A DNA stretch of 64,000 bases from positions 160,001-224,000 of IMG/VR virus record IMGVR_UViG_3300024493_000235; one strand, 5' to 3'. Below the pieces are notes generated by a model. The model saw nothing but the letters and a program-made list of their open reading frames with translations. It did no database searches and was not told where the DNA came from. Shown piece by piece: positions 28,919-59,085 of this stretch. The translations under genes and the position numbers were made by a program. Every line of letters starts with the position of its first letter. The first letter of the stretch is position 1. This stretch comes from a virus. Its lineage: Duplodnaviria; Caudoviricetes.

Positions 28919-28960
28919 CTTAAGTGTGGGACGCAAAATCCCACACTTAAGTTTTTATTT
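28919..28960 (+). terminator. rho-independent terminator after tubulin
   Basis: CTTAAGTGTGGGA / TCCCACACTTAAG 13-bp stem plus TTTTT. Confidence 0.8.
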
Positions 28961-29390
28961 ATCATTACGTCAATGGATACATTAGGGTCTAGTTTTATCA
29001 CGCTAGTGGTAAAGCGCCTCCTTTCAGCGTCCGTTTGCACCGATATACCACTCGGTGTACATATTAGAAATGCGCTATTAGCCATGGATGTATTTCTAGT
29101 AATGACGCAAAAAGACATGCGGATTGTATGTCGCTTCTATACATACGGTTCTTACTCGATCGTATAACGAATTCGATTTTCTGTCAAGCCGCAAACCGGA
29201 AATTCGTCTTCGTACCCATGATCTTAATGTATCCATTGATCTAATGATAAACATACAAAAGTTAATGGATTGACCAAAATGGTCGCGCTATTTGGTTAAG
29301 AATAGCTGTAGTAATTTTTGTGTGTTATCTTGGGTCCGCGTAAATCTTCCTTTACGTAAGCGCTATTACGGCGCTTACGTTTATTTTTTT
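28958..29390 (+). ncRNA. candidate ~430-nt structured non-coding RNA (RNA-1)
   Basis: ~30-bp closing stem 28958-28989 / 29220-29251, internal hairpins with G-U pairs on +, 3' hairpin, terminator 29354-29390, no credible ORF. Confidence 0.6.
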
Positions 29391-29405
29391 AATCGGGGGG
29401 GGGTT

Positions 29406-30095
29406 ATGAAAAACGATAACCTACATGACTTGTCGACCTTCATGGACTGGTGGTCTGATAAGTGTGCGAAACCTTTCTCTATTCCGTTTCACATACAGCC
29501 TGATACTGTAAATCGTTTTATAGAGAAATATAAGTACGCAAATCTTGTATATGAAAGTTATACAGATGATGAGGATCACAGCACACCAAATTTTATGGCG
29601 CTTTTTTATTCTCCGTACTATCCTGTGTATACTTTACATCGAAAGTTTAAAATTCACACCATTCAGGATCATGAGGAATATGGCGGTAAATATACTGTGA
29701 CATTCAAGCATATCTTCTCAGAAGAGGAATTTCAGAAATGTAAATACTACAAAGAAGATACGCGTGAAAGAAAAAATCACATTGAAGTTGTGGAATATCC
29801 GCAAGAGAGACTTAAGGAAAAGGACAGCCTTTTGTCTATATCTCCGTATATTTTCGCATACGATTTCTTGAACTTAAAGGAACCTACAGATATAGCTTTA
29901 TCTTTACAGTTCTTGAAAAATCGGCATAACATATTGCAATCCTTACGTGTTTTATACATACAAAATGAAGAATCTTACACAGAAATTCTTAAAGCTTCTG
30001 GTTTTTCTATTGTCGATTGTGTACCGAATGTCGCATATCCTTTGTGTATGGACAACATTTGGGCTTATGATTTGGGTGCTTCAACATCTACATAA
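29406..30095 (+). CDS. hypothetical protein
   Basis: ATG 29406 after a poly-G RBS; ~229 aa. Confidence 0.6.
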   Translation: MKNDNLHDLSTFMDWWSDKCAKPFSIPFHIQPDTVNRFIEKYKYANLVYESYTDDEDHSTPNFMALFYSPYYPVYTLHRKFKIHTIQDHEEYGGKYTVTFKHIFSEEEFQKCKYYKEDTRERKNHIEVVEYPQERLKEKDSLLSISPYIFAYDFLNLKEPTDIALSLQFLKNRHNILQSLRVLYIQNEESYTEILKASGFSIVDCVPNVAYPLCMDNIWAYDLGASTST

Positions 30096-30121
30096 ACGTA
30101 TCCTACAAGGAGGGTATAATC

Positions 30122-31624
30122 GTGGCTATGACACTTGAAGATTTTGAGGGTTTTTATTATATCGAAAACGATCCGGATGAAGTTACCGGCTTTTTAAAGG
30201 GCGGATCCATATCCCTTGATAAGGATATAAGTAACGATCTTACTAATGATAAAAAGATCACTTTCCGGGATGTACTTGAAAAGTTTTCCGTTCCAGTTCA
30301 TCTTACATGTACAGTTGCGAATGTCATTCACAATCTTTACATGGATAACTACGGGCTTGAAGGAACGTCAAATGATCTTTCTCTTTTAAATCCTGACACC
30401 ATAAACTCGTGGAAGAAAGCTTTTCAAATCGCTTACAGCATATACAGAATGCGCCGGTATTTAGGATGGACTGACGGAGCTAATAATCCTGCAGATTTAG
30501 CCTTACATATGGCGATGTCGGGATCAAATAAAACAGAAGATCCGAATGATCCTTTGAAGATGATCCCGAATACCATTTTTGAAGAATTCAAAATCCTTCG
30601 TGATGCACAGCGTTTAGATCTTTGGTATGTCAAAAACCTTGGAAGAGAAATAAGAACATACATTGTTCCTGGGACACAGCGTATTGCTAGAATGGAATTC
30701 TCATGTTATGACGATTCCGGCATTGGCGGAAGTTTCAGGAACTTTGTATTGTGGACAAACCCAGAAGTCTTCGTTACGACACAAGTGAACTCTCGTCCGT
30801 ATATTTACGTTTATTATACGGACGATCCTGATATTGAACGCCACGAACAAGAAGAAGTCGTTGCGGCAATGTTTAGAAGAATAGGACCGAGGTATGTAAA
30901 AGATCACAATGTATACATGGCGCCTGTATATTCAAGTGGAGAAATGCAGCCTTTCCATATCTTTACAAAAGGTATAAACTGGGAAGGACTCACTAATCCC
31001 TTGGATAATGCTAATATATTGCATGCTATAAAGCAGACAATATTGGAAAATGACAAAGACGCCCACAGAGGAGAAGACTTTCTTTCAGAAAAATATCCGA
31101 CAATATTTATCTCTTCAAGAAGGGCTATTTGGCCTTTGTATACAAACAAAAGTTTAAACGATTACATGGAAACAAATCCCGCAACTTCTATTAAGGAGTT
31201 ATTTCTTTCAAATCCTGTGAGTCTTGAAACAATACAAAAGGAAATAAACGATTCGTCTGTATTGCAAAACAGTGAAGCTCAATATCCATGGAAATACGAA
31301 ATATTCACTCTCGAACATAAATGGTTCCCGTTCATAGTTGGAGGCCCCGATGGCGGTCTTTCCGATAAAATCCCGAAATATCGTCCTTCAATAGACGGAA
31401 ATTTTAGGCATGATAATACCGAAGATGATTTTGCATTTAAGTTTCACACGTATTTAAAGAATACGATAAACTACATTTGCGGTGATACAAAAGTTATCGA
31501 TTCTGCCATCATGTCTGCGATGGGGTATGCTGAAACTTCAACTTACGTGTCGTTTAAATTACGAGGGGTTGAATGGGCGGTATACAAACGCGGAAACAGA
31601 ACTGAATTCGATTTAAAGGTGTAG
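30122..31624 (+). CDS. hypothetical (probable virion) protein
   Basis: 500 aa, AAGGAGG RBS. Confidence 0.6.
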   Translation: MAMTLEDFEGFYYIENDPDEVTGFLKGGSISLDKDISNDLTNDKKITFRDVLEKFSVPVHLTCTVANVIHNLYMDNYGLEGTSNDLSLLNPDTINSWKKAFQIAYSIYRMRRYLGWTDGANNPADLALHMAMSGSNKTEDPNDPLKMIPNTIFEEFKILRDAQRLDLWYVKNLGREIRTYIVPGTQRIARMEFSCYDDSGIGGSFRNFVLWTNPEVFVTTQVNSRPYIYVYYTDDPDIERHEQEEVVAAMFRRIGPRYVKDHNVYMAPVYSSGEMQPFHIFTKGINWEGLTNPLDNANILHAIKQTILENDKDAHRGEDFLSEKYPTIFISSRRAIWPLYTNKSLNDYMETNPATSIKELFLSNPVSLETIQKEINDSSVLQNSEAQYPWKYEIFTLEHKWFPFIVGGPDGGLSDKIPKYRPSIDGNFRHDNTEDDFAFKFHTYLKNTINYICGDTKVIDSAIMSAMGYAETSTYVSFKLRGVEWAVYKRGNRTEFDLKV

Positions 31625-31627
31625 CCC

Positions 31628-32497
31628 ATGATAGATAGATTGCATGTTGGCAAATATTACGAAGCAATCGGGGCTGGAAAATGGGCAGATTTTAAACAAG
31701 ACATAAAAGTTGTCGCCGTCACCACATTTCAAGAAGCTGAAAAGCTAGAATGGGATGTATATAAACCGTGGTTTGAAGATTATCAAATCGATGAAAGCAT
31801 GTATCAAAGACTGCTTTTAGAGAACGGTTTTGTTTATCATTGCAAAGCTCTTGATTCAAGGGATCCACAGGTTATGATAGACGGAAAGGGAGGAGATATA
31901 TATCTTTTCCCTATGATGGTGAATTATAATGAGACTACAGAGCTTATTACTTGTATGACATATAAATTTGAAATCTTTTCACGCCCTTATACCCAAGATG
32001 ATAGATTTAATCCGATGACACGTCTTAATATAGACCTTACAAGTGTCATTAACAACGCTATCCTTCCTCATATATACGATGCTGTTACGGTTTTAAGTAA
32101 CTCGAGTGATATCGTCATAAGTAAAAGAGAATATGATCTCTTTACTAAAGAAAGGGAAGAAGCCGAGTTAAATATAAAAACCGCTTTATCTAATGCACAA
32201 GACGAAGTAAACAGACAATTGATAGAAGCATATGCTCTTGTCGGGAAAAATGAAGAAGATAAGGAGAAAATCCGACTTCTTTTAATCTCCGCAGAGCAAA
32301 AAGCTGCCGATGCCTTTAGGCTTTTCAATACGTATACATCAAGAGATAACCAGCTTACACGAAAACAAAATGTATTGGAGCAAAAACGGATCAATTTGGT
32401 CTCATTAAAGAACGAATTCAACGAAAGATGTAGGGCTGCTGACTTGGAAGACTTGCAACTTCCAGACGATTGGATTCCTGACTTCTTTGATTTGTAG
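31628..32497 (+). CDS. hypothetical protein with C-terminal coiled coil
   Basis: 289 aa. Confidence 0.6.
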   Translation: MIDRLHVGKYYEAIGAGKWADFKQDIKVVAVTTFQEAEKLEWDVYKPWFEDYQIDESMYQRLLLENGFVYHCKALDSRDPQVMIDGKGGDIYLFPMMVNYNETTELITCMTYKFEIFSRPYTQDDRFNPMTRLNIDLTSVINNAILPHIYDAVTVLSNSSDIVISKREYDLFTKEREEAELNIKTALSNAQDEVNRQLIEAYALVGKNEEDKEKIRLLLISAEQKAADAFRLFNTYTSRDNQLTRKQNVLEQKRINLVSLKNEFNERCRAADLEDLQLPDDWIPDFFDL

Positions 32498-32561
32498 AAA
32501 TTTGGTCTAATTGATTCAAATATTATTTAGACTATATATCATCTACATGAAGGAGAAGAAT

Positions 32562-32768
32562 ATGACAACGACATTCACAAAATTTGGTCTACCTGTTATC
32601 TGGTCTTTAGTGAAAAACACCGTGTATGGGTTAAAATATAATCGAAAAGACGTACAGGTACGATGTTCATCCGTAGCAACCATCAAATCTGGCTACGGAA
32701 TGTTTTATGAACACATTCCACCCATAGCATTGGATCTGAAAATTGATCCTTCTGGGGCTGTGACATAG
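32562..32768 (+). CDS. small hypothetical protein
   Basis: AAGGAG RBS, TATATATCAT promoter motif at 32533. Confidence 0.5.
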   Translation: MTTTFTKFGLPVIWSLVKNTVYGLKYNRKDVQVRCSSVATIKSGYGMFYEHIPPIALDLKIDPSGAVT

Positions 32769-32911
32769 ACATTTTAAAAGCATTCTCATACAAATGAAAA
32801 TTTGTATTACACATATGGAGGTAAAGATTCAATAAAAATGCGCACGCTTTATAGTATATTTACGGGGTGGTTTCTCACCCCGTTATTTTAACAACAAGGA
32901 GGATACGTATC

Positions 32912-33217
32912 ATGGATTATGCCATATATGCGCGTATCGATATGCATAGAGGACCAACTCCTTATGCAGAAATTTGGGCCGACAAAGACAGCGATGATGT
33001 TTTTTCATCTGAAGGTAGGACGATGATTCCTCATTCGAGGTTTATTGTCACTCAAACATATCCTGAGTCAGAAGATGACATCAAAGAATACAAGCCTGAT
33101 GAAAACGATTTCCACCTTACAGATAAAATGAAAGCCTACATTTTCAAGTGGGCTAAAGAGAAAAGCTGTATGCCTCCGCATGCCAGCAATTGGGGATCTG
33201 TTTTTTCTTTATGGTGA
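32912..33217 (+). CDS. DUF4160-like small protein (paralog family)
   Basis: DMHRGPTPYA...IFKWA...NW....LW; AGGAGG RBS. Confidence 0.5.
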   Translation: MDYAIYARIDMHRGPTPYAEIWADKDSDDVFSSEGRTMIPHSRFIVTQTYPESEDDIKEYKPDENDFHLTDKMKAYIFKWAKEKSCMPPHASNWGSVFSLW

Positions 33218-33271
33218 GTATAGGGAGAGACGCATGTCTCTCCTTTATTTTTATAATAAAGGAGGTATTAT

Positions 33272-33487
33272 ATGTGTACAACTACAACTTCTACTTGCGG
33301 TCAAAAACCTCGAGTTTTTCAAAAAAGAAGATTTGGTGAACCGGTTATATTGCGAAATCCTGATGTACCAGGATATCCAGATTATCTTTTAAGCAACGAA
33401 GAAGAAATCGAATACTTAAAAAAGCGCATTGCAGTTACCCGAAAGAAAATAGAAGAACAAAATTCTCGCAAAGCTATCGGGGGATAA
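33272..33487 (+). CDS. small hypothetical protein
   Basis: AAGGAGGT RBS; terminator follows. Confidence 0.55.
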   Translation: MCTTTTSTCGQKPRVFQKRRFGEPVILRNPDVPGYPDYLLSNEEEIEYLKKRIAVTRKKIEEQNSRKAIGG

Positions 33488-33594
33488 TTTTAAGGAGAGG
33501 CATCATGCCTCTCCTATATTTTTTTTGATCTGTACATTTTGACAAACATTGTAATAGCGATAACGAGTATACATAATATATGTAGGAGAAAATA

Positions 33595-35376
33595 ATGGAT
33601 GGTGAAAAATATACATTTATCAATCAGTTCTACTTAAAAGAGCAATGGAAAAATAAAAAAGGCACTTTTAAGAAAGTAGCTGATGATGCAATGATTGTTG
33701 TATATAAGAAAGGGGATAAACAGATTATCAGAATTATCGAAAATCCCGATTTTTCTTTTTATATAGCTAAACAAAACGTCGATGTTCCAAAGTATATAGA
33801 CTTTATATCAAGAGACAGTGTCGACCTTGTTACCATCAAGTATCATGATCTTGAAAAAATTTTAGCTGATTATTGCGGAAGAACTGAAGAGTATAACTAC
33901 ATCAAATCTGCTGGAAAGTATGCAAGTTATGAAGAGAAAATGGAGACACGTAAAAGGTTCATTAAGAGTCTTCATATGAATCCTCGTATCTTTGGATCAG
34001 ATCGCAATATAGAAGAATGGTATAAACAGCAGTTTGTAAAACAGCATGGTGTTCACATAGGCGGTTACAAGCTTATGTTTTTTGATATAGAAACTGATAC
34101 TTTTTCAGATCCATCGGTCGCAAAAAGTCCCATAAACGTAATGTCTTTTTATTTTCAACCTTCAAATACGATGTATACTCTCATTCGGGACGATGAAAAG
34201 ACATATCCTACAATTGCACAATTCAAAAATGATTTGGCATCTGGGGCTTTTTTAGCTCGTCTTAAAGCAGATCCTGACATGAATGGACAAACTGAAGGTG
34301 AAGGAAAAGCTACATTTACAAACAAGGATACAACTTATATCTTCGAATTCTTTGATAATGATTTCGAGATAATAAAAAGACGATATAAAATTATTCACGA
34401 ATTAAAGCCGGATTTTTGCTATGCATGGAACTTCTCATTTGATGAAATGACATGTATTAACAGGGCAAAAAATTATATCGAACGTCATCCTGAAGAAGGG
34501 CGTCTTGAAGATTTATTGTGTCATCCTGATGTGCCTCCTAAATTTCGTTTCTGGAATTTTAGAGAAGATAAAAATCCGAGGCACGAATATTATGACAAAT
34601 GGCATATTCTTTCTATTCCTGGATATACACAATACATCTGTGCAATGTCGACATTTGCAAATATTAGAAAAGGACGTGGTTCTTTCTCATCATATTCTCT
34701 TAATGATATTTGCATGACAATACTGAAAAAAGGAAAACTCGATTATTCCAATATTGCCATAGATCCAATCGAGCTTCCTAAAGTTGATTTTGCAACTCAT
34801 GTGCATTACAATATTAAAGACACTTGGATGATGGCATGTCTCGAAGCTAAAACTAGGGATATAAATGCTCTTATGTATTTAGCAGAATTATCAAGTCTTT
34901 CTAACGTGTGTAAAAAGACTTCGATTGTAACAAACAGAATGATTCAATTCTATGAGAATAATGGTCTTGTTATGGCAAATAACAAGAATGCTCTTATACA
35001 AAATCCTGAAACAGGATATGAAGGCGCTATTGTTGCATCTCCTCATTTGAATGAAGCTCTCATGACTCCTTTATTTCCATATCCGTCTAAAATGATTCGT
35101 CCATTTATAAGCGATGCCGACCTTGCAAGTTTGTATCCGAGTATTGTTATTTTGTTTAACACTTACAAAACGGGATTAGAGTTTCAGATAGATAAGATAG
35201 GACAAGTATCTCAAGTTAGAGATAACATATCAGCCATCAGTATTCCTGAATGCTTTGATAATCTTTTAACAGGAGATATAATGTCATGGACACACGATTA
35301 TCTACAAATGCCATCGATAGGAAATATGGTGGTAGAACTTGACAAAGAGTTAAAGAGATTGGGAGGAGCAGAATGA
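33595..35376 (+). CDS. family B DNA polymerase, N-terminal subunit (3'-5' exonuclease plus motif A) of a split enzyme
   Basis: ExoI FDIETD, ExoII WNFSFD, ExoIII YNIKD, YEGAIV, motif A DLASLYPS; ends before motifs B and C. Confidence 0.88.
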   Translation: MDGEKYTFINQFYLKEQWKNKKGTFKKVADDAMIVVYKKGDKQIIRIIENPDFSFYIAKQNVDVPKYIDFISRDSVDLVTIKYHDLEKILADYCGRTEEYNYIKSAGKYASYEEKMETRKRFIKSLHMNPRIFGSDRNIEEWYKQQFVKQHGVHIGGYKLMFFDIETDTFSDPSVAKSPINVMSFYFQPSNTMYTLIRDDEKTYPTIAQFKNDLASGAFLARLKADPDMNGQTEGEGKATFTNKDTTYIFEFFDNDFEIIKRRYKIIHELKPDFCYAWNFSFDEMTCINRAKNYIERHPEEGRLEDLLCHPDVPPKFRFWNFREDKNPRHEYYDKWHILSIPGYTQYICAMSTFANIRKGRGSFSSYSLNDICMTILKKGKLDYSNIAIDPIELPKVDFATHVHYNIKDTWMMACLEAKTRDINALMYLAELSSLSNVCKKTSIVTNRMIQFYENNGLVMANNKNALIQNPETGYEGAIVASPHLNEALMTPLFPYPSKMIRPFISDADLASLYPSIVILFNTYKTGLEFQIDKIGQVSQVRDNISAISIPECFDNLLTGDIMSWTHDYLQMPSIGNMVVELDKELKRLGGAE

Positions 35377-36275
35377 CATCTCAAGAATACCATCATTATG
35401 CGCCATTTGAAGAATCTGTAAATGAAGTATGGTCTAAACGTTTTGCTGATGCTATAATGTATTTTTGCAAAATGTTAAAGCAAACGCACTATCCATATTT
35501 CTGTTTATATTGCGGACATATTTATACAGCCTTTACCCCTACTGAACCGCAAGATACCACTAAAACGAACGTTTTCTTGGGCAATATCGATATAAAATAC
35601 ACCGATTTTTGCACTCCTTTAACAGAATCGCTTACCGCAATATTCGATAATAAAGTTGGACCTAATATAGGGGGGTGTATTCTTATTATCGATATCGAAA
35701 AGTTTTATGCGTTTTATAACGAATACTCGAAAGAGAAAAAGGAAAACAAATCTCCAATACATCTTAAAATGCTTTTTCAAAACGATAAAGTTCTCAATCG
35801 CTGTAAGTTCTCATATACGCAACTTTCTTCAAATACCGAAGTTTCATATGAAAGCGTATTTGGTGTATATCTACTTACAGGCGTTCCCCGTATTAATGAT
35901 CCCGCAAGTCCTACATATCTTGAAACACATAGTGTATACGATATTCCAATTGGAATTATTCAAAATATGTTTGAAAGGGATGAGCCTGTTGATATAAATC
36001 TTCAAGAAGGTTTTATATCTATTTTTGGGACTAAAATTAACGCCAGTGTACATATGAATTCAAATGACATAAATGGCGTAATATCGATATCGAAAAATAT
36101 GTTTCTTAAAGAGTTTACAAAGAGTGCCGTTACAAGTGTAAACTTGACTCTTTATACTATAAAGAACATAAGTTCTTCTTTTATGCTATTCCGTTTTAAA
36201 TCCGTAATCGACGGTCTTACTGTTGTATCCGACGGATGGACAGTTATTATTCAGAAAAAACAACCGCTTATATGA
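35373..36275 (+). CDS. hypothetical protein
   Basis: 300 aa, coupled to the polymerase gene. Confidence 0.6.
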   Translation: MTSQEYHHYAPFEESVNEVWSKRFADAIMYFCKMLKQTHYPYFCLYCGHIYTAFTPTEPQDTTKTNVFLGNIDIKYTDFCTPLTESLTAIFDNKVGPNIGGCILIIDIEKFYAFYNEYSKEKKENKSPIHLKMLFQNDKVLNRCKFSYTQLSSNTEVSYESVFGVYLLTGVPRINDPASPTYLETHSVYDIPIGIIQNMFERDEPVDINLQEGFISIFGTKINASVHMNSNDINGVISISKNMFLKEFTKSAVTSVNLTLYTIKNISSSFMLFRFKSVIDGLTVVSDGWTVIIQKKQPLI

Positions 36276-36364
36276 GTATATATCATATAACTGTGTAGAA
36301 ATATTAACGGTTAAATACGCCCAGTTATGGGCGTATTTTTTATTTTATTGAAAAGGAGTAAATT

Positions 36365-37600: not shown

Positions 37601-37637
37601 CCTATTTCTAAGCACGATATAAAAGGAGTTTCTTATT

Positions 37638-46713: not shown

Positions 46714-46727
46714 GAGTATAATCCGCT

Positions 46728-48208: not shown

Positions 48209-49423
48209 ATGTTTTTTAGACCAGAAAGTGACGGCATCGCTATTCAGAAGAAAATGGTGCTAGGTTTACAGCACACATTCACAATGTTCGGGGCTACGGT
48301 ATTGGTTCCAATACTTACCGGATTAAATGTATCTGTTGCGCTTTTTATGGCTGGGGTATGTACAATTCTGTTTCACCTTATTAATCAGGGTAAAGTACCG
48401 ATATTCCTCGGTTCCTCATTTGCGTATATTACTCCCATCATAACTGTCGGATCTTTATTCGGGTTGCAATACGCACAAGGTGGCGTAGTGATTTCAGGCC
48501 TTGTATACGCGTTATTGGCATTAATCATTAAAGCATTCGGTGTTGAGAAGGTATTAAAATTCTTTCCACCAATAGTTACAGGTCCCATAATTGTGATCAT
48601 AGGACTAACCCTTGCACCTGTTGCGGTATCCTCAGCATCGAATGATTGGTTACTCGCTGCAATTAGTTTTATAATCGTACTTGTAATTGCAATTCTTACA
48701 AGAGGATTTATTAAAATGATTCCTGTACTTTGTGGCCTTGTTGGAGGATACATTGTTGCAGTATTGATGGGTAAAGTCGATTTTACTGCAGTAGGAGAAG
48801 CTGCATGGATTGGAATACCAGCTTTTACAATTGCAAAATTTAATGCAAGTGCTGTACTACTTATAGTACCTGTAGCAATTGTAACCTTTGTTGAACACAT
48901 TGGCGATATAATTGCTATCGGGACAGTTTGCAATAAAAACTTTGCGGAGGATCCAGGACTTCATCGGACTTTATTAGGCGACGGATTAATGACTTCGTTA
49001 AGCTCGATGTTTGGTGGCCCGGCGAATACAACTTACTCGGAAAACACTGGAGTAATAGCTTTGACAAAGGTTTTTGATCCATTTGTTATGCAAATTGCGG
49101 CGTGTTTTGCTATATTAATCAGTATGTGTCCAAAATTTGCCGCCGTAATAGCTTCAATTCCTGGTGGTGTCATTGGAGGAATTTCGATTGTGCTATTTGG
49201 CATGATTTCTGCTACTGGTATTCGTAGTATCGTTGATAATAAGGTTGATTTTTCGGCTCCTCGAAATTTATTCATCGCCGCCACGATCCTTGTAATTGGT
49301 CTCGGTGGTACCGGTATTCAAATCAATAATTCTCTCTCGATATCTACAATGGCTCTTGCCGCTGTACTGGGGATTGTGTTAAATAAAGTACTTCCCCAAG
49401 TTAAGATTGACGAAAAAGGTTAA
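48209..49423 (+). CDS. uraA: NCS2-family uracil/xanthine permease (UraA/PyrP)
   Basis: LGLQH..MFGATVLVP, LGSSFAYI, PPIVTG, EHIGD, PGLHRTLLGDG, NTTYSENTG signature; many TM helices. Confidence 0.93.
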   Translation: MFFRPESDGIAIQKKMVLGLQHTFTMFGATVLVPILTGLNVSVALFMAGVCTILFHLINQGKVPIFLGSSFAYITPIITVGSLFGLQYAQGGVVISGLVYALLALIIKAFGVEKVLKFFPPIVTGPIIVIIGLTLAPVAVSSASNDWLLAAISFIIVLVIAILTRGFIKMIPVLCGLVGGYIVAVLMGKVDFTAVGEAAWIGIPAFTIAKFNASAVLLIVPVAIVTFVEHIGDIIAIGTVCNKNFAEDPGLHRTLLGDGLMTSLSSMFGGPANTTYSENTGVIALTKVFDPFVMQIAACFAILISMCPKFAAVIASIPGGVIGGISIVLFGMISATGIRSIVDNKVDFSAPRNLFIAATILVIGLGGTGIQINNSLSISTMALAAVLGIVLNKVLPQVKIDEKG

Positions 49424-50243: not shown

Positions 50244-52136
50244 TTACAGGTTTTTTCGCATCTCTTCCATTTTGGGAGTTCGTAAGAATTGATTACTTGT
50301 CATAACAAGATCCAAAATGGAAATAGCGGCTGTAAGAATTTGTGTGTCAACTTCAGAGCTGTTTATAATAGCGTTGTTCTTCGTTGCATCGTTAGCTCTG
50401 TGTATTTCACGTTTATCGTTTATTAACGTATACGAATCTTCGTAGTTATCATTGATGATATCATACGTCCTATCGCTTTCGATGCATTCTTTAGCGATTT
50501 TATACGACTTCCTCCAAGACCTGAATTTGTTATCGATAATGATTGCATAGGTTCTTGTATATGCTATGCAAATATTGTAAAGTATTTCGTACACATATTT
50601 ATCGATACTCTTTCTGATATTCGACGGCATGGTTTTATTAAGGGATGTAGTAATTGAATCGACAAATTCTCGAAGCACAAGAGCGTTAAGATTGTTCTTA
50701 TCGCGATTCTTATATTCTTCAAGAATTTTGTGGCATATTTTTGGAATGATTGTATTGCCACCGCATACGATTCCGCTTTTTATAGCGGACTTACATCCAC
50801 GTACAGCATCATCGAAAAGATGCTGTTTGTTTTCTTTCTCCTCGATTGTATCCCCACCAACAAAGAGAGTTACCATGTCTCCGTATAAAGCGGCTTTTCT
50901 TCTTTGTAGTAAGAAGATATTGTACTGATTGTCAATGTGTGTTTCACTTTTCATCCGATCTATTTCTTTGTCGATATCATCGATTCTGAACTTGATTCTG
51001 TCGGTGTTGTTTTTTCCGCCTATGAAACGTGTATAATTTGTAGTTGAAGCTATAATCTTATTGCACGTTCCAAGATACGCATCATACTTTTGTGGATCAG
51101 CTTCGATTGGAAATTGTTTTGCGGAATCAACTGTGATAATTGAAGCGCTTATGTTATCGGCTAAGTCTTGAAGATTTTCTTTACCGATAGAAGATTCTGT
51201 GTCCATTTCTATGCACAAGAGCTTTAATATAGTGCCGTGTTTTTCTACGAACCTTATAATCGACTGCCTGAACGATTCTCTTGATGCTTCACAGAATCCT
51301 CCTGCTATAATAACAAGGGGACGAGAACATTTGCCAATGACGTATTCGATTACGTATCGTAGCGCTTCTATATCATGAGTCATGATATGGCCTTTAATAA
51401 GAAGAATCTTCGGATTCACATATACAGCGCGTCTGCCATCAGGTTCTGTAACCATTTCAGGAAGTAGCATTCCCCGGGTGATTTCAAAACCGCGATCAAG
51501 GTCATAATGTGTTACATTCGTTCTCGATAATTCTGCGTTCACAAACCCGTGACCCGGATTTTTAAGAGAGCAAAACATATCAGATACGAGTTTTCCATTC
51601 TCCCAATCGTTATTAAGAGAGATGGATGCAACAGCTTGAATTCTCTGTTCGAAGGTGTCAGTTTTGTTATATCCGCCATCTTTGTACTCAATAAGCGGAA
51701 TTGCGTTTTTCTTGACGATTTCGTTCAGTTTTTGCCCGATTATCTTCAGAGATTCTGCTAAAAATTTAGGGGGTATGTGCCATTTCCTTGCCAGCTTTCG
51801 GATACGATACAATTCGTTCGCAATTACAACAGAACTTGTGGTTCCATCCCCTACTACATCATTTAGGCTTCCTGATATCTTTTGGAATAACCTTGCAGCA
51901 ACTCTTGCCAATCTTGGGTAGAAAACTAAGGACCTGTAGACAGTCCATCCGTCTTTTGTAGTCGTATGATGAAGCATTTGATCTTCTATGATCGTATTTG
52001 CGCCATATGGACCTAATGTGCGTTTAAAGACAGCAGATTCAAAACGAAGTGTTCTTACAATCTCCTTGTCTAGCTCATCAGGCCCCGTGACATTTGAATA
52101 CGTTTCATCTTTTCTCTTTAAAGGATTTAAAAACAT
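50244..52136 (-). CDS. phage-encoded GroEL-like chaperonin
   Basis: TLGPYG, TKDG, GDGTTS, VGGDT..E...DDAV, GGN; AGGAG RBS before ATG 52136. Confidence 0.9.
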   Translation of the reverse strand: MFLNPLKRKDETYSNVTGPDELDKEIVRTLRFESAVFKRTLGPYGANTIIEDQMLHHTTTKDGWTVYRSLVFYPRLARVAARLFQKISGSLNDVVGDGTTSSVVIANELYRIRKLARKWHIPPKFLAESLKIIGQKLNEIVKKNAIPLIEYKDGGYNKTDTFEQRIQAVASISLNNDWENGKLVSDMFCSLKNPGHGFVNAELSRTNVTHYDLDRGFEITRGMLLPEMVTEPDGRRAVYVNPKILLIKGHIMTHDIEALRYVIEYVIGKCSRPLVIIAGGFCEASRESFRQSIIRFVEKHGTILKLLCIEMDTESSIGKENLQDLADNISASIITVDSAKQFPIEADPQKYDAYLGTCNKIIASTTNYTRFIGGKNNTDRIKFRIDDIDKEIDRMKSETHIDNQYNIFLLQRRKAALYGDMVTLFVGGDTIEEKENKQHLFDDAVRGCKSAIKSGIVCGGNTIIPKICHKILEEYKNRDKNNLNALVLREFVDSITTSLNKTMPSNIRKSIDKYVYEILYNICIAYTRTYAIIIDNKFRSWRKSYKIAKECIESDRTYDIINDNYEDSYTLINDKREIHRANDATKNNAIINSSEVDTQILTAAISILDLVMTSNQFLRTPKMEEMRKNL

Positions 52137-52138
52137 TT

Positions 52139-52489
52139 TTATTGCAAACTCCTTTTTGAATGAGCGATTTTCAAGATATAAAGCGTTCCTTTTCCTTCGG
52201 ATATTTGATAGTAAAAACCATTTTCCGTAGGAAGCGGAATGTCGCAATTTTCAATGACATTGCGACAGCGAGATGTGAATCTAAAAGGAATTGAAAGAGT
52301 ATTTTTTTGCATACTTTTGAAATCAACTCTTTCGACATTAATATCCCCTTTAGATTTGTGTGTTTCACTTATGCGCTTTAGAATGTCCCATGCTGTATTA
52401 ACAAGCGCATCGTAACCCATTGCGATATCAAAACCATTCTCAGGTTTCTCACTACCGCAGAGTTGATTCACAAACGTAATTTTATTCAA
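52139..52489 (-). CDS. hypothetical protein
   Basis: 116 aa; no GroES motifs seen. Confidence 0.55.
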   Translation of the reverse strand: MNKITFVNQLCGSEKPENGFDIAMGYDALVNTAWDILKRISETHKSKGDINVERVDFKSMQKNTLSIPFRFTSRCRNVIENCDIPLPTENGFYYQISEGKGTLYILKIAHSKRSLQ

Positions 52490-52517
52490 TTCCTTCCCCT
52501 TTTTTGATTTTCATGAG

Positions 52518-52754
52518 CTAATGCTTTGCGTTTTTAATGGCGTCAGCTTGCTCCTTAATAATCTGGATACGAGCTTCAGTTAAGCTCGCTAATGTGGGAA
52601 GATCCATTTCATCTAGTTCTGTGTGCGTGAATTTTCCATCAAATAGCTGTAAGAGTTGGAGAGTATATTTTGAACTTTCGATAGCAATATCTGTTTTTAT
52701 ATACTCCCCATCCCTTGCAACTAGAACCCCTTTCGGCTTTTGGTTTCGAAAAAA
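52518..52754 (-). CDS. -1 frameshift extension of the upstream gene (T4 gp51 / tail-chaperone GT-like segment)
   Basis: -1 frame FRNQKPKGVLVARDGEYIKTDIAIESSKYTLQLLQLFDGKFTHTELDEMDLPTLASLTEARIQIIKEQADAIKNAKH*; no start codon of its own; entered at T TTT TTC. Confidence 0.6.
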   Translation of the reverse strand, partial: FFRNQKPKGVLVARDGEYIKTDIAIESSKYTLQLLQLFDGKFTHTELDEMDLPTLASLTEARIQIIKEQADAIKNAKH

Positions 52755-54643
52755 AGCGTCCGTGTATTAATGTCCCTCTGGTTAATAATACGGCCGCAAT
52801 GCTTACATTTAACGCGCGGTATTTGATATGCAACAGAGAACCGCGTTATGTAGTTTATAATCTCCTTCTCAAACTGTTTCTTTTCATCAGGAGAGATATC
52901 GGCGATGGCTTTATCGATAGCCTCTACGCGCGTATCGAGGAAGTAGTTTGCCTCACCGGTTTGATTATAGTGTTTGATATCGATAATACCGACACCACGA
53001 ATATATCCGGCATAAATCATGTCATGATAGAAGTCGTTTACAACTTCTTCTTTTTTGCCCTTAAACGAATTCTCAAGGAACTCAAAGATACTCGGAGTGC
53101 GAGCCCTGAAGAAGCGACGGCCTTTCTCAATAAAGATGTCCAAGGCCGACCATCTTTGTGTCAACGCTTGAATCCTCTTTGGATCCCATGCCATCGGATT
53201 GTTGAGTATATCAGAAATTTGTTGTTGTGCGATACTGCCAGGAGGAATACATGCCAAAGTGTTTGTATCTATTTGTACGGATATATTCTTTCCGCAGAAG
53301 TTACAATCAAATGTAAAAGGTGTTTTTGAAGGATATGTGGCGTGATACAGGCCAAACATGAATGTCTGAAGGTCCGAATATGCTGTTGCATTCATCCATT
53401 GCTGGAATGTAAGGGCACCGCAAGAGAACTCGGAAAGTTTTGAATATATGGCGTTACATATGGCCATTTCGTACGCATATGTATTATCGTTTCCTTCTCT
53501 TCGTCCAAATGTACGAAGTTCACGAGAATTGAACGGTTTTACCATACACGAATATCCTGATTGAACAGCGACAATCTGTACTTTCCTCAATCCGTCAAGA
53601 ATGTTTTGTTCAAGTTCAACTTGTCTCATCATATAATCAGGAATTGTTGAAGCTTCGACAACTGTCCGCTTTGAGATATCGATTTCTTTGCCTTGCAGTT
53701 TCTTAATTTCTGCAGTGCTCGCTTCAAATATCTTATAGTGTGTTGTCGTATAATCATTCAATTCGATTACTTGGACATCATTAAGCTGTTTTGAAGTTGT
53801 GAGATATCCGTTGTTGTCTTTTTCCAACTCTTCAAGTTGTCTCTTGTTTGCTTCTTCTTCCGTGATACTTTCAACGTATGTGCCTGGTTCAGCTTTATCA
53901 TTCACATTTTCAAGCGGAATATCTTTATTGGCATCGGCTTTTTTGACTTCTGTATCTTCTACAGTTTGAGTCATTATATTATCAGAGATATTTGTTTCTC
54001 GCCATGAAAGTTCAACATTTTGTGCCGCTTCTTGTGTATTTGCTTGTGGAGCTTCGGCTGTTGGCGGATTTTCAGAAACTGGCGGTGCTGGGGGTGGAGG
54101 CGTGTCAGTAACTGGTTGCGATTCTATCGGAGGTGTATTGGGTTTCGTTGTTGCATCGTCTACATTTTGTGGAGGTACAGAAGTATCACTTTCTTCACCC
54201 GGTATAAATGATTGCACAACACCTTTTTCATTTTCAGGAATAACCTCCGCATCCTCCGTAGTTGTAAACTGATCCGGTTTCTCTATTACAGTTGGCTGTT
54301 TTGCCGTCTGTAAAGCATCGTTGATTGTATCAAGTGAATGTGATAAACCGTTAGGCGCTTCGACCTTCGGAATTGGAACGGCATCATGTGCCACTTCAGG
54401 AGGTGCTGAACGCACTTCTTCCTTTGGCTTTCCGTCAGATACAGGCGGCGGATCCCTTTGAGCTTCGGGATCTTCAAGTCTGTGTCCGACTTCATTTTGT
54501 ACGATTTGTTGTGGGCGATCCTGATTTTTTTCATTCAGTTTTTGAAGTTCTTGCTGCTTTCTTTCTTCCGCTGAAATGGATCCAGGTATATTTACACCAG
54601 AATCAAAATTAACCATCGGCGGGATTCCATTATTCTCAGTCAT
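52721..54643 (-). CDS. baseplate hub / tail assembly chaperone (T4 gp26-like C-terminal domain) with a long P/E-rich disordered N-terminus
   Basis: VKPF..RE, DLQTFMFGLY, CNFCGK, RTPSI, CKHCG, LFF end. Confidence 0.6.
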   Translation of the reverse strand: MTENNGIPPMVNFDSGVNIPGSISAEERKQQELQKLNEKNQDRPQQIVQNEVGHRLEDPEAQRDPPPVSDGKPKEEVRSAPPEVAHDAVPIPKVEAPNGLSHSLDTINDALQTAKQPTVIEKPDQFTTTEDAEVIPENEKGVVQSFIPGEESDTSVPPQNVDDATTKPNTPPIESQPVTDTPPPPAPPVSENPPTAEAPQANTQEAAQNVELSWRETNISDNIMTQTVEDTEVKKADANKDIPLENVNDKAEPGTYVESITEEEANKRQLEELEKDNNGYLTTSKQLNDVQVIELNDYTTTHYKIFEASTAEIKKLQGKEIDISKRTVVEASTIPDYMMRQVELEQNILDGLRKVQIVAVQSGYSCMVKPFNSRELRTFGRREGNDNTYAYEMAICNAIYSKLSEFSCGALTFQQWMNATAYSDLQTFMFGLYHATYPSKTPFTFDCNFCGKNISVQIDTNTLACIPPGSIAQQQISDILNNPMAWDPKRIQALTQRWSALDIFIEKGRRFFRARTPSIFEFLENSFKGKKEEVVNDFYHDMIYAGYIRGVGIIDIKHYNQTGEANYFLDTRVEAIDKAIADISPDEKKQFEKEIINYITRFSVAYQIPRVKCKHCGRIINQRDINTRTLFFETKSRKGF

Positions 54644-54673
54644 ATTTCCTCCTTACAGAAATACATATTAGTT

Positions 54674-55267
54674 TTATAATACCACTGCTGCGACTTCTGA
54701 ATCTTCAGGCGGAGCAAATGGATCTTGATTATTTTTCGGTTTTGGCGGTTCTTTTGTCATAGTTGTAAAAATCGGAGCATCTTCTGGTGGAACAGCGATT
54801 CCTTGTAAGAAAGGATTTCCAGGTTGTGTTGGAACTTTTTGATGTCCGCTGGTGTAATCGATCCCGCTTTGAGGAATTGCAATTCCTTCTCTTCTAGCCA
54901 AATTCAATATCCCTCTTTCTTGCGCATTTAAAGGTCTTTGTTGTCCTTGTCCTTTCTGTTTCATACCGTTATTAACGTGTGCTTGATTATTTTTCATCAT
55001 TGCAACGTACATCCTTTGCCGATTTAAAGCATCCTGTTTCACACTATCAGGAATATTTGGATCATTTTTCATTCTGCTTAAGTTTGGAGCTTCCTTTGCG
55101 GCTTGTATAAGAGCAGATTGCATGTCTGCAAATTCTTCTTTCGAATAAGGAACACCATCCATTTTTACTTTTCCAGAATGAATTTGATTTAAAGGATTGT
55201 CAGGGTCTCCCATTACTTGTGCTTGAGTTTGGGAAAGCATTTTTTTGTAATCATCTATCGTAGGCAT
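54674..55267 (-). CDS. hypothetical protein (Q/P-rich)
   Basis: 197 aa, AAGGAG RBS. Confidence 0.6.
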   Translation of the reverse strand: MPTIDDYKKMLSQTQAQVMGDPDNPLNQIHSGKVKMDGVPYSKEEFADMQSALIQAAKEAPNLSRMKNDPNIPDSVKQDALNRQRMYVAMMKNNQAHVNNGMKQKGQGQQRPLNAQERGILNLARREGIAIPQSGIDYTSGHQKVPTQPGNPFLQGIAVPPEDAPIFTTMTKEPPKPKNNQDPFAPPEDSEVAAVVL

Positions 55268-55282
55268 GTATTTCTCCTTAAA

Positions 55283-55762
55283 TTATGCGACATGGCTTAT
55301 GAAAGGTGTTTTATCGATAGACACGTCTTTAACGTGTAATCGACCATTACTTGCAGATCCGTCCCATTTTATCACAGTTCCGGTTTTCAGTTCTATCGAT
55401 ATTTTACAATCCTGAGATCCGTCCGATGTCGGAGCACGTGTAGAGGGAGCTATTTCAAAATGTACACCGGTGATAAATCCTTTTTCAATGAATCTATCTC
55501 CTAGCCACATAATATCATTTTGGATTCTTTCTGTTACCCTGTCTATTTCACTTATTATCCCACCATCGGAAGCTTTTTCAGCAAATTGTATCGATGACGT
55601 GTCTAATCCGCAATCAGGGCAATCCTGCATAGTCCCAGGTCTCATATTAAGCATATTTGAAAGAGCTAATATTTTATATCCTTCTCCGTATGGGTCATTT
55701 GTTTCAAGCATGCCATTAAATTTTCCAAACTTATAACGAAAGTCTATCACTCCTTGGGCCAT
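55283..55762 (-). CDS. baseplate wedge gp25-like protein
   Basis: LNMRPGTMQDCPDCGLD resembles the gp25 T.PGER...P.FG motif; AAGGAG RBS before ATG 55762. Confidence 0.55.
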   Translation of the reverse strand: MAQGVIDFRYKFGKFNGMLETNDPYGEGYKILALSNMLNMRPGTMQDCPDCGLDTSSIQFAEKASDGGIISEIDRVTERIQNDIMWLGDRFIEKGFITGVHFEIAPSTRAPTSDGSQDCKISIELKTGTVIKWDGSASNGRLHVKDVSIDKTPFISHVA

Positions 55763-55793
55763 ACTCAATCTCCTTGATACGAAATATGTGAAA

Positions 55794-55815
55794 AACATTT
55801 CATTAATAGATTGTT
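55794..55815. promoter_or_regulatory. overlapping divergent late promoters
   Basis: AACATTTCATTA on + (55794-55805) and AACAATCTATTA on - (55815-55804). Confidence 0.55.
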
Positions 55816-55862
55816 GTTGTTCTAAAAAATAGTGAAAAATTTCTATAAAAAAGAAGGAAAAT

Positions 55863-56669
55863 ATGAAAATTCCTAATGTAAAGGTATTTAAATGTCCTAT
55901 TTGCAAGAGATCGTTCTCATCAAAGCAAGCTGTGTACACCCATATGTATAAAGAACACTCCGATGAAATACCCGACGGCATGAGTGCCGCACAGTACGCT
56001 TTTAATCTTCGTAATAATAAAGAATACGGTCTTTGTGTCCAATGCAAAGTTGGAAAAACACCTTGGAACGAAGAAGCCGAAAGATATGATAGATTCTGCT
56101 GTGAAGAATGCAAAAACGCATATGTCGCAGAAGCTAAAAGACGAATGGTTGCTAAGTATGGGAAAGAGCATCTTTTAGATGATCCAGATCATCAACAGAA
56201 GATGATGAATAACAGATCAATCTCAGGTGTTTATGTTTTTGATACAGATAAAATCGCCGTAAAGTACAACAGCCAGTATGAATATGATTTTTTGCGTCAT
56301 CTTAATTTAGGACATGGATGGCTTGGAAAAGATATCGTCCAATGTCCGTTTGCATTTGAGTATGTACACGACTGTAAGAAAAAGTTATATATTCCAGATT
56401 ATTGGATTATATCTTTGAACGCCGTTATCGAAATTAAGTCGTATCAGAATAAGCACCATAAGATTCTTGAAGTTGATGTCGAGATGGAAAAATTAAAAGA
56501 CGCCGTGATGGAAGAACAAACACAATATAACTACATTAAAATTGTAGATGAAAAATACGTGTCTTTTTCTTTTTTTGTAAAACTCATTCAAGATTTATAC
56601 TGGGATTGTAAAGATCCCGACATTCAACCTGAAGTTGCTGGAATTAAAATAATTCCGCCAAGGAGTTAG
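55863..56669 (+). CDS. C2H2 Zn-finger plus TnsA-like PD-(D/E)xK nuclease
   Basis: CPICKRSF....VYTHMYKEH; CVQC; SQYE; YIPDY...IEIK. Confidence 0.7.
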   Translation: MKIPNVKVFKCPICKRSFSSKQAVYTHMYKEHSDEIPDGMSAAQYAFNLRNNKEYGLCVQCKVGKTPWNEEAERYDRFCCEECKNAYVAEAKRRMVAKYGKEHLLDDPDHQQKMMNNRSISGVYVFDTDKIAVKYNSQYEYDFLRHLNLGHGWLGKDIVQCPFAFEYVHDCKKKLYIPDYWIISLNAVIEIKSYQNKHHKILEVDVEMEKLKDAVMEEQTQYNYIKIVDEKYVSFSFFVKLIQDLYWDCKDPDIQPEVAGIKIIPPRS

Positions 56670-56670
56670 C

Positions 56671-57348
56671 ATGCTGACAGTAATAACAAAAAATCTCTTT
56701 AAAAAGCCAAAAAAAATAACACTTGCAAGAGCCATTCAAATAATTGAAATGGAAGACCCGTATATCACAACAGATTGGCATCTTGGAAAGTTTATTAACA
56801 AACAACAGACAGAAGCTTCTTATCAGGAATATATCGAAAAGACAAAGAAAATGATTGACAGACTTCAAAAAGCTGTAAAACCTGGAAAACCGATGTTGTG
56901 TCTCGGAGATATTACAGAAGAAGAGATGTATGACGAAGATTTGATTAAATGGCTTTACAACACCGTTGTTACGATACATGGAAGTCCAAAAATTTTAATA
57001 AAAGGAAACAACGATATTTTCGATGATGAATTTTATTATAAGCTCGGATTTGAATATGTGACAAAAAGAAATATCGTATCCGATAAACTTCGAATAGTTT
57101 TTTCTCATGAGCCTGTGTCTATAATAGACATGAAACTCTCCGAAAAGGATTGGCTTAATTTGCACGGACACAGTCACGGATCCGGTAAATTATACAACAT
57201 GCAACCAGGGGATGCTAATTGTCATTTGGATGCTTTTCCGGATTACAATTGGCAAGGCGTTCAAAAACTCTCGTACTATCTTAGCATGTTTCGCGCACAT
57301 CCTGAAAAGTATAAGTGCGACGTTATTTATAAATACGGGTGGAATTAA
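56671..57348 (+). CDS. calcineurin-like metallophosphoesterase
   Basis: TDWH, LGD, KGNND, FSHEP, HGHSH. Confidence 0.85.
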   Translation: MLTVITKNLFKKPKKITLARAIQIIEMEDPYITTDWHLGKFINKQQTEASYQEYIEKTKKMIDRLQKAVKPGKPMLCLGDITEEEMYDEDLIKWLYNTVVTIHGSPKILIKGNNDIFDDEFYYKLGFEYVTKRNIVSDKLRIVFSHEPVSIIDMKLSEKDWLNLHGHSHGSGKLYNMQPGDANCHLDAFPDYNWQGVQKLSYYLSMFRAHPEKYKCDVIYKYGWN

Positions 57349-57359
57349 AGGAGACACAC

Positions 57360-58523
57360 ATGAAAAGCTTGGATGATTATATTCCAAAAATCCCTATGGG
57401 TCTTGATGACAACGTTATTGATGTAGAAGACAATATTTCATACGAGATTGTCAACGCCCTTTCTGAATTACATTGTACAACATCGGATTTGTTACAAACA
57501 GAATCCGAACTGGTTTTAAGATATATTTCAGACGAATATGGTATATCGTTTGAAAATGTCGATGCGGATATCGGCATACAAATAGGGATAAAGCCTTCAA
57601 GAGATCCGCATACAGGAACACCGAATGTCCTTGATGTCAAAATCAATTCAAGGGTCGGATTCTTTGAGTCTTTGGCAAAAAAGATGCGGGATTTGGCGCT
57701 ACGAGTTGCAACCGCTATTCGTAACTTTTTTGTATCAATCCATCATTTTTTTCAATCCAAAATTAGCAAAGTGGACAATATGCTTTTACATGCTAATTTT
57801 TCTATCGTTGATAAATATTACAGCGATACATCAAAATCTTGTAAGATAAAACTTACAAAGTATATGATAAATGATCCTATTGCTGAATACAAAAAAGATC
57901 AAGACGTATTGCGTCTTGCAGTTCCAAGATTAAAAGATGCAATTATTACCCTTGTTGATCATATCGAAAATCCTATTACACTGCAAGAAAAAACTGGAAG
58001 TAAAAGTGATATGTACGTCACATACCAAAGAGACAGGGATGAAATCCAAACTCTATTTGATGAAATCTTTGGAAAGCTTGCAGGGCCTCACGTTAATCTC
58101 GAAATGATTCATGAAATGAATATCGCACGTGTTATTCGGCTTAAATACTTTGGAGATAAGAAAACCTCTGATATATTTGAAGTTCGAGATGTTATTCCAA
58201 ATAAAGAAGTATTTGATACCATAACTTCTGATAATGCGTATCATTCATTTAAGAATTTATTCAAACAATCCGATGAATGTCTTGAAATCGCATTGAAAGT
58301 CGCTAACAGGTTTAACAAAAGCCTCAGGATGATGTATAATTCTCCTTCGACTGTATATACAGAAATACAAGGAGTTATACTTAAATTTCGAGGTCTTCTT
58401 ACAGCTTTATTGTACACGAATATCGCATATTGGGAATTATATTTTTCAATACGACAGAATGCTTTGGCAGCCCTTCGTGCAATCATAAGAGACGATGTTG
58501 AAAAACAAGTTTCAAACAAATAA
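57360..58523 (+). CDS. probable internal head protein
   Basis: ISFE motif after an acidic N-terminal region, then an amphipathic helix typical of phiKZ-like head proteins. Confidence 0.45.
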   Translation: MKSLDDYIPKIPMGLDDNVIDVEDNISYEIVNALSELHCTTSDLLQTESELVLRYISDEYGISFENVDADIGIQIGIKPSRDPHTGTPNVLDVKINSRVGFFESLAKKMRDLALRVATAIRNFFVSIHHFFQSKISKVDNMLLHANFSIVDKYYSDTSKSCKIKLTKYMINDPIAEYKKDQDVLRLAVPRLKDAIITLVDHIENPITLQEKTGSKSDMYVTYQRDRDEIQTLFDEIFGKLAGPHVNLEMIHEMNIARVIRLKYFGDKKTSDIFEVRDVIPNKEVFDTITSDNAYHSFKNLFKQSDECLEIALKVANRFNKSLRMMYNSPSTVYTEIQGVILKFRGLLTALLYTNIAYWELYFSIRQNALAALRAIIRDDVEKQVSNK

Positions 58524-58536
58524 AGACAAAGAAAAT

Positions 58537-58568
58537 AATGCAGGGTGGCTAACAGCCACCCTGCATTA
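58537..58568. terminator. terminator hairpin
   Basis: TAATGCAGGGTGGCT-AAC-AGCCACCCTGCATTA. Confidence 0.7.
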
Positions 58569-58645
58569 AAGAGGTGATAATCTCTCCATATTATATCTCC
58601 CCAGGCCCAACCAACACATATGATTTAGGAGAGTCTATATATGGC

Positions 58646-59085
58646 AAAAATAAAAGCGGCAGGGGCAATCTGGCCCCTGCCGCCCGGCGGATCTGCAGCC
58701 CGATTCGGAATATAAATCCCGGACCGGTTTTCTTTAGTCTGCTAGATTGCGCCACTCTGAACCGCCGCGATTAAGCGGCAGTTAATAAAAATGACATGCA
58801 GGGCTTAGCATTGGCATGGCGTACCACATTATAATAGAGGCTTGCCGCCGCGGGAACAAGCCCGTGGCGGTGCATACTATAATGCGGGTTTTTAATCAGC
58901 GCCGGTTAGACGGGGTAACGGTTTTATCCATAATCCGCGGTAGTCGCCTTTGCATTTATCGCCCTACTGGGATGCCTTTTCCCGGATATTCTTTGGGAAG
59001 CGCGGCAGCTTTCCGCGCGACCTTTATCCCGGATCGCCGTTGCTAGCAAACGACAAGGCATTTTACATGGAACATGTCATCTTCA
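58646..59085 (-). ncRNA. candidate ~435-nt structured non-coding RNA (RNA-2)
   Basis: GC-rich island with many hairpins. Minus-strand TATATATCAT promoter motif at 59103-59094; closing stem ATGACATG/CATGTCAT (59080/58791); minus-strand terminator GCGGCAGGGGC...GCCCCTGCCGC plus T tract. Confidence 0.65.

What the first reader, a model, noticed from the sequence alone, without database searches (positions are those of the whole stretch)
28958..59085. Two dispersed ~430-nt structured RNAs with a parallel architecture: possible undescribed phage ncRNA family
Seen: RNA-1 (28958-29390, +) and RNA-2 (59085-58646, -) each have a ~290-nt multibranch domain closed by a long-range stem, then a hairpin (TTGACC...GGTTAAGAATAGC vs TTAACT...GGTTCAGAGTGGC), then a terminator. 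Both carry a central GCAAA...GCGGATT segment that can pair with a 3' GGTCCG segment (29117-29125 with 29333-29341; 58937-58932 with 58725-58720), and both have GTAC(G)CCATG just inside the closing stem. Inference: diverged paralogs of one large RNA with a conserved pseudoknot, in a size class similar to large phage RNAs of unknown function. The similarity is short and was judged by eye.
Basis: partly seen in the sequence, partly recalled or inferred. Interest (0 to 1): 0.8.

Follow-up and report, generated by a model that had tools for sequence, protein, structure and literature searches.

The report
Two orphan structured jumbo-phage RNAs
An uncultured giant phage from termite gut carries two gene-free, roughly 430-base stretches that fold into strong RNA structures, match no catalogued RNA family and are missing at the same spots in related phages; they are probably real non-coding RNA genes, but their proposed kinship and shared knot did no better than chance in my tests.

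Summary
Both elements are at the stated coordinates of a 268-kb termite-gut jumbo phage. They are the most stably folding non-coding stretches tested in the genome (z -10.2 and -5.5), fold better on the stated strand, end in terminators, and hit nothing in Rfam or ARAGORN. RNA-2 has a perfect early promoter. RNA-1 starts at the tubulin terminator, where the closest relative has a tRNA-Cys gene. At both sites the related phages (7 and 3-4 loci) have only a terminator, so both look like accessory insertions. The shared motifs exist, but paralogy is not supported: pairwise alignment, word chains, structure-profile alignment and reciprocal covariance models scored at or near chance. A shared, mutually complementary pair of 6-mers appears in 6-17% of shuffled pairs, and the predicted folds place the motifs in different contexts. 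No homologue was found, so covariation could not be tested. tmRNA, RNase P, 23S-mimic and RaK2-family readings failed. The scan has not seen these sequences in other genomes, though it has noted RNAs of this kind in other jumbo phages. Verdict: two probable orphan ncRNA genes (about 0.75 each); one family about 0.3.

The parts
27722..28909 (+). Phage tubulin (PhuZ/FtsZ-like) gene, with early promoter motif at 27655-27664; probable source of read-through into RNA-1
   Evidence: Pfam PF00091, PHROG tubulin; promoter motif
28919..28959 (+). Tubulin intrinsic terminator (13-bp stem plus U-tract); a terminator-like hairpin sits here in relatives too
28956..28965 (+). 9/10 variant of the phage early promoter motif, overlapping the 5' arm of RNA-1; uncertain
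   Evidence: the mismatch is at a position kept in the clear early promoters listed there
28958..29390 (+). RNA-1, candidate non-coding RNA gene, 433 nt, 39% GC
   Evidence: z -10.2; sense z -8.3 against antisense -4.1, inner domain alone -4.4 against +0.4; no Rfam hit; RNA-library contig over 28985-29161
28960..29249 (+). RNA-1 main domain: 29-bp closing stem (28960-28989/29220-29249) around hairpins 28992-29015, 29027-29108 (two inner hairpins), 29114-29132, 29143-29165 and 29167-29213
   Evidence: helix table, mean pair probability 0.77-1.0; inverted repeat I2
29119..29127 (+). Hairpin loop that could kiss 29333-29339 (candidate pseudoknot in RNA-1)
   Evidence: sequence; partner nearly unpaired in the fold; covariation not testable
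29250..29326 (+). RNA-1 3' domain: 15-bp stem enclosing hairpins 29271-29285 and 29287-29306
29354..29390 (+). RNA-1 intrinsic terminator
59094..59103 (-). Perfect match to the phage early promoter motif TATATAT(A/C)AT, driving RNA-2
   Evidence: the same motif precedes dozens of genes in the genome
58646..59089 (-). RNA-2, candidate non-coding RNA gene, about 444 nt, 52% GC (top 0.2% of genome windows)
   Evidence: z -5.5; sense z -4.2 against antisense -2.2; no Rfam hit at gathering score or inside the RNA at meaningful E; GC
58783..59088 (-). RNA-2 main domain: 15-bp closing stem around arm A (59061-58972) and long arm B (58967-58798)
58686..58782 (-). RNA-2 3' domain: hairpin 58782-58761 and branched stem 58753-58686 containing GGUCCG (58725-58720)
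58646..58685 (-). RNA-2 intrinsic terminator
58536..58568 (.). Second terminator hairpin, probably the ancestral one; relatives carry only one such hairpin between the two convergent genes

Best explanation
RNA-1 and RNA-2 are two accessory non-coding RNA genes, most likely unrelated, that this phage lineage picked up at terminator junctions, much as phages pick up extra protein genes. Shown: folding, strand bias, terminators, absence at the orthologous sites. Inferred: RNA-2 is an early transcript from its own promoter to its own terminator. RNA-1 is made by read-through of the tubulin terminator, or from a weak overlapping promoter, and may be cut out at its 29-bp stem by an RNase III-type enzyme. 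Inferred and weakest: each acts in trans as a folded particle that binds a host or phage protein or self-assembles, in the manner proposed for ROOL and GOLLD, rather than as an mRNA, ribozyme or antisense regulator.
For: Lowest folding energy per base of 29 gene-free gaps and strongest z of 19 gaps tested in the 268-kb genome. z -10.2 and -5.5. RNA-level strand bias, clear for RNA-1 (-152.8 against -114.3 kcal/mol, 20 against 5 G-U pairs). No credible protein: short internal ORFs lack an RBS or a family hit and were not called as genes. Promoter and terminator signals. Flanking genes are orthologous and adjacent in relatives, with only 70-165 nt after tubulin (L008, L009, L011, L012, L013, L402, L405) and 34-40 nt at the RNA-2 site (L055, L059, L060; L057 similar but lacks one flank). 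A tRNA-Cys gene occupies RNA-1's position in the closest relative. ROOL and GOLLD are large phage or prophage RNAs, often near tRNA islands; ROOL was abundant but non-essential in one strain (PMC12286853). Tests of relatedness were at or near chance.
Against: No homologue of either RNA was found, so there is no covariation and each structure rests on one sequence. RNA-2's strand bias is small, and its inner domain folds no better on the sense strand. No partner or activity is known, so the trans-acting step is analogy only.
Confidence: 0.5

Rival explanations
1. One reading: ancient paralogs of one new RNA family with a conserved long-range pseudoknot between the GCGGAUU segment and GGUCCG.
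For: Similar length and gross layout, and the only two such elements in the genome. The motifs are colinear and recovered by unbiased chaining. The shared complementary 6-mer pair is moderately rare (6% of shuffles at offset <=30). With an alternative fold for RNA-1, the hairpin before GGUU and a short stem after it can be drawn in both RNAs with changed but compatible pairs (sequence). RaK2 carries at least three copies of one large RNA-like element.
Against: Alignment and chain scores at or near shuffle level. Structure-profile score no better than rRNA fragments. Reciprocal covariance models miss. MAFFT finds a different, mutually exclusive match of similar quality in the same region. Motifs lie in different predicted helices. 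Combined motif patterns found no third member in IMG/VR, JGI metagenomes or the GTDB matches returned.
Confidence: 0.3
2. One or both are inert or mobile DNA: non-autonomous insertion elements or captured foreign fragments. RNA-1's roughly 45-bp inverted arms would be element ends, and RNA-2 a GC-rich foreign piece.
For: Absent at the orthologous sites. RNA-1's inverted arms extend to about 28947-28989 and 29220-29265. RNA-2 is 52% GC in a 37% genome. Each is single-copy.
Against: RNA-1's inner 230 nt folds on the sense strand only (z -4.4 against +0.4), and its helices carry G-U rather than A-C oppositions. RNA-2 has a perfect phage promoter and its own terminator. No second copy or donor was found.
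Confidence: 0.12
3. RNA-2 is a tmRNA-derived decoy that kept the resume codon and a short non-degradation tag (AKATTADYG-stop from 58953) but lost the tRNA-like domain.
For: The resume-codon context scores 10.7 on a matrix from 11 fetched tmRNAs. With a 7-13-codon frame this occurs in 2.2% of shuffles (a test chosen after seeing the motif). The long stem closes about 290 nt, like tmRNA helix 2.
Against: No acceptor stem, T-arm or CCA end. ARAGORN and Rfam negative. A tmRNA profile finds nothing. The resume codon is paired in arm B. RNA-1 has no such context.
Confidence: 0.05
4. RNA-1 is a folded mRNA for a small protein (64 codons from 28973), silenced by 5'-3' pairing as in type I toxin mRNAs.
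For: The start codon lies in the closing stem, 7 nt after the promoter-like motif.
Against: No RBS, no family hit, not called as a gene. By inspection the peptide lacks a clear membrane helix, and an ORF of this length is common by chance.
Confidence: 0.03

Closest known systems
ROOL (RF03087) and GOLLD RNAs
   Same: Large, highly paired, protein-free RNA genes of phages and prophages, often near tRNA genes, function unknown (PMC12286853). RNA-1 occupies a site that holds a tRNA gene in a relative.
   Different: No covariance-model match. Shorter (430-445 nt against 659 nt for the ROOL studied and often over 800 nt for GOLLD). No homologues, no demonstrated pseudoknots, no evidence of cage formation.
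Unpublished multi-copy 430-550-nt RNA of RaK2-like jumbo phages
   Same: Size class, jumbo-phage host, dispersed copies.
   Different: Copies in RaK2 find each other easily (E 1e-137 and 3e-15). RNA-1 and RNA-2 match neither that family nor each other.
tmRNA (RF00023)
   Same: Size, a long stem closing about 290 nt, and a resume-codon-like context with a 9-codon frame in RNA-2.
   Different: No tRNA-like domain, no profile match, and the tag does not end in AA.
Jumbo-phage sRNAs of 201phi2-1 and phiKZ (PMC11512511); candidate structured RNAs from IMG/VR (PMC10690425)
   Same: Phage non-coding structured RNAs between promoter and terminator.
   Different: Those are under 250 nt or 29-151 nt and need at least three matching regions; these are about 430-nt singletons. 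I did not compare against the paper's supplementary models.

Membership tests
ROOL / GOLLD | Match to the family covariance model | tested here: not met
   cmscan at gathering score and at E<=10
ROOL / GOLLD | Phage-borne, near tRNA genes | tested here: inconclusive
   Phage-borne yes; no tRNA in the window, one tRNA-Cys about 26 kb from RNA-2; tRNA-Cys at RNA-1's site in relative L008
ROOL / GOLLD | Multiple covarying pseudoknots and RNA-only oligomers | not testable with these tools
   no homologues; needs cryo-EM or mass photometry
One family holding RNA-1 and RNA-2 | Sequence similarity above shuffled controls | tested here: not met
One family holding RNA-1 and RNA-2 | Shared secondary structure above unrelated structured RNA; reciprocal covariance-model detection | tested here: not met
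   (single-sequence models, limited power)
One family holding RNA-1 and RNA-2 | Covariation of the pseudoknot | not testable with these tools
   the six pairs are identical in both copies and no further homologue was found; such a shared pair arises in 6-17% of shuffles
tmRNA | tRNA-like domain (acceptor stem, T-arm, CCA) | tested here: not met
tmRNA | Resume codon and tag frame | tested here: inconclusive
   RNA-2 only, p about 0.02 post hoc
Bacterial RNase P RNA (RF00010) | Conserved regions CR-I to CR-V and P4 | tested here: not met
   profile from 24 fetched RNAs, best blocks at shuffle mean; Rfam negative
23S rRNA domain V fragment or mimic | Colinear conserved peptidyl-transferase segments above chance | tested here: not met
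Group I/II introns, self-cleaving ribozymes, HEARO, riboswitches in Rfam | Match to the family model | tested here: not met
RaK2-type multi-copy RNA | Match to a profile of three RaK2 copies | tested here: not met

The most novel reading that the evidence does not exclude
RNA-1 and RNA-2 are the first two members of an undescribed, fast-diverging family of pseudoknotted 430-nt phage RNAs that insert as mobile RNA cassettes at terminators of a jumbo phage and act as decoys for a host translation or defence factor.
Probability: 0.2. Interest if true: 0.72.

Novelty: new variant of a known kind. Interest (0 to 1): 0.4.

Why it matters
Large structured phage RNAs are few and their function is an open question. 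Two new ones that are present in one phage and absent at the same sites in its relatives suggest such RNAs are gained and lost like accessory protein genes, and that a terminator junction can hold a tRNA in one phage and a large RNA in another. They are ready targets for SHAPE and cryo-EM. The value is limited for now: each is a singleton from an uncultured phage with an unknown host, and neither the family nor the pseudoknot is established.

Tried and rejected
Homologue searches, all negative. blastn against GenBank phages, plasmids and E. coli. Own genome. Close relatives are not retrievable from the viral collection, and their long contigs could be read only within 10 kb of marker genes, so copies elsewhere in those genomes are not excluded. 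The 23S peptidyl-transferase mimic idea came from motifs I recalled and failed against fetched rRNAs. RNase P, including a permuted form, and tmRNA failed against fetched profiles. RaK2 family: no match. RNA contigs: coverage of 28985-29161 in one run and little elsewhere in RNA-1; contigs cannot show strand, ends or level, and gaps prove nothing. Host: the uracil permease is closest to Bacillota proteins at about 62%, too distant to name a host. Literature searches found no paper on this phage group or these RNAs.
Full report
Setting. The window is bases 160001-224000 of a 268,442-bp virus record whose DNA occurs in a termite-gut sample. It encodes a tubulin and multi-subunit RNA polymerase subunits; the nearest cultured phages by the beta-prime subunit tested are AR9/PBS1- and phiR1-37-like, at 27-34% identity.

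The observation. RNA-1 folds at -152.8 kcal/mol (z -10.2) and RNA-2 at -178.2 (z -5.5), with no shuffle as stable. Their gaps have the lowest energy per base of 29 gene-free gaps in the genome and the strongest z-scores of the 19 tested. RNA-1 is clearly strand-biased: z -8.3 against -4.1 without the terminator, -4.4 against +0.4 for the inner 230 nt, and 20 against 5 G-U pairs. RNA-2 is less so, -4.2 against -2.2. Both end in intrinsic terminators. The phage early promoter motif TATATAT(A/C)AT precedes dozens of genes; RNA-2 has a perfect copy at 59103-59094, and its 15-bp closing stem begins 6 nt later. RNA-1 has only a 9/10 variant overlapping its own 5' arm, directly behind the tubulin terminator. 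Rfam and ARAGORN give nothing. Internal ORFs of 64-76 codons have no family hit, and the two looked up were not called as genes.

Context in relatives. Tubulin orthologues at 39-62% identity lie in syntenic loci with only 70-165 nt and one terminator before the next gene. In the closest relative, L008, a tRNA-Cys gene starts right after that terminator's U-tract, exactly where RNA-1 starts. At the RNA-2 site the two convergent flanking genes are orthologous in L055, L059 and L060 and are separated by 34-37 nt holding one hairpin. Both elements are therefore accessory at these sites. I could not read the rest of those genomes.

Are they paralogs? The motifs are real and in the same order, but the tests that allow for the many possible matches gave chance or near-chance values. 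Pairwise alignment: 37, 444, 480 and 568 of 1000 shuffles scored as well. Alignment on pairing profiles was no better than either RNA against 16S and 23S fragments. A covariance model of RNA-2's 3' domain did not list RNA-1 at E<=10, and a model of RNA-1's core did not list RNA-2 among 35 hits. MAFFT found a different, incompatible match of similar quality in the same region. The best single argument, an identical and mutually complementary pair of 6-mers at similar offsets, turns up in 6-17% of shuffled pairs. In the predicted folds both strands are available in RNA-1 but partly sequestered in RNA-2, and the other motifs lie in different helices. As a positive control, the RaK2 multi-copy element finds two further copies at E 1e-137 and 3e-15 by nhmmer, which finds no match between RNA-1 and RNA-2 at E<=5. 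Single-sequence models have limited power, so I leave paralogy at about 0.3.

Homologues. None were found by blastn, pattern scans, nhmmer or covariance models in GenBank phages, plasmids, IMG/VR, JGI metagenomes, the GTDB matches returned, or the loci of relatives. The scan's index holds no look-alike in another genome. Covariation could not be measured.

Expression. Two termite metatranscriptome runs hold contigs from this phage, and one covers 28985-29161 inside RNA-1. This is compatible with transcription but does not show it, since contigs give no strand, ends or level.

Known classes considered. A resemblance of RNA-2 to the 23S peptidyl-transferase centre, which I noticed from memory, vanished against fetched rRNAs. 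RNase P and tmRNA profiles built from fetched genes found nothing. RNA-2 has a resume-codon-like context followed by a 9-codon frame (2.2% of shuffles, post hoc) but no tRNA-like domain. The RaK2-type RNA is unrelated. The closest kind is the large ornate phage RNAs ROOL and GOLLD, which have no known function and form RNA-only cages (PMC12286853). A 2026 review of jumbo phages mentions non-coding RNAs only once, for phiKZ (PMC13282480).

How it most likely works. Shown: two strongly folded, terminator-bounded stretches with no credible protein, present at junctions where relatives lack them. Inferred: RNA-2 is an early stand-alone transcript; RNA-1 comes from tubulin read-through or a weak promoter and may be released by cleavage of its 29-bp stem. 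Inferred by analogy only: they act in trans as folded scaffolds or decoys. I put each at about 0.75 for being a real RNA gene, the pair at 0.3 for being one family, and the best explanation as a whole at 0.5.

Verdict. Observation partly confirmed, interpretation partly supported. Two uncatalogued orphan RNAs of a known kind; interest 0.4, rising to about 0.7 if homologues unite them with a covarying pseudoknot.

Noticed in passing
L008:11217-11290: tRNA-Cys(GCA) gene directly behind the tubulin terminator in the closest relative, at the position of RNA-1; this phage's single tRNA, also Cys, lies elsewhere (G000 244881-244954).
   Followed up: partly
window 58570-58720, + strand: A ribosome-binding site and ATG near 58640 open a 24-codon frame antisense to RNA-2's terminator and 3' end; possibly the remnant of an interrupted gene, or chance.
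   Followed up: partly
window 28947-28989 and 29220-29265: RNA-1's closing inverted repeat extends to about 45 bp and reaches into the 3' half of the tubulin terminator, so the 3' arm has two competing partners.
   Followed up: partly
G000 141927 and 142767, - strand (outside the window): An identical stretch of about 40 nt occurs twice, 840 nt apart, apparently in coding sequence; it produced two false hits to the shared motif.
   Followed up: no
G000 159094-159511 (just before the window): A 24% GC, repeat-rich non-coding stretch with many TAACT-like words and little folding; could be a replication origin.
   Followed up: no
window 50244-52247, - strand: By synteny this gene corresponds to a Cpn60/TCP1 chaperonin gene in relatives; not checked directly.
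   Followed up: no
window 10129-10899 and 48209-49423: Host-type metabolic genes: one that looks like purC by eye, and a uracil-permease-like gene about 62% identical to Bacillota proteins.
   Followed up: partly
RaK2 JQ513383.1 near 6855-7437, 191272-191982 and 279606-280344 (within L334, L343, L347-L348): Three diverged copies of a large, mostly ORF-free element, in line with earlier notes of this scan; unrelated to RNA-1 and RNA-2.
   Followed up: partly
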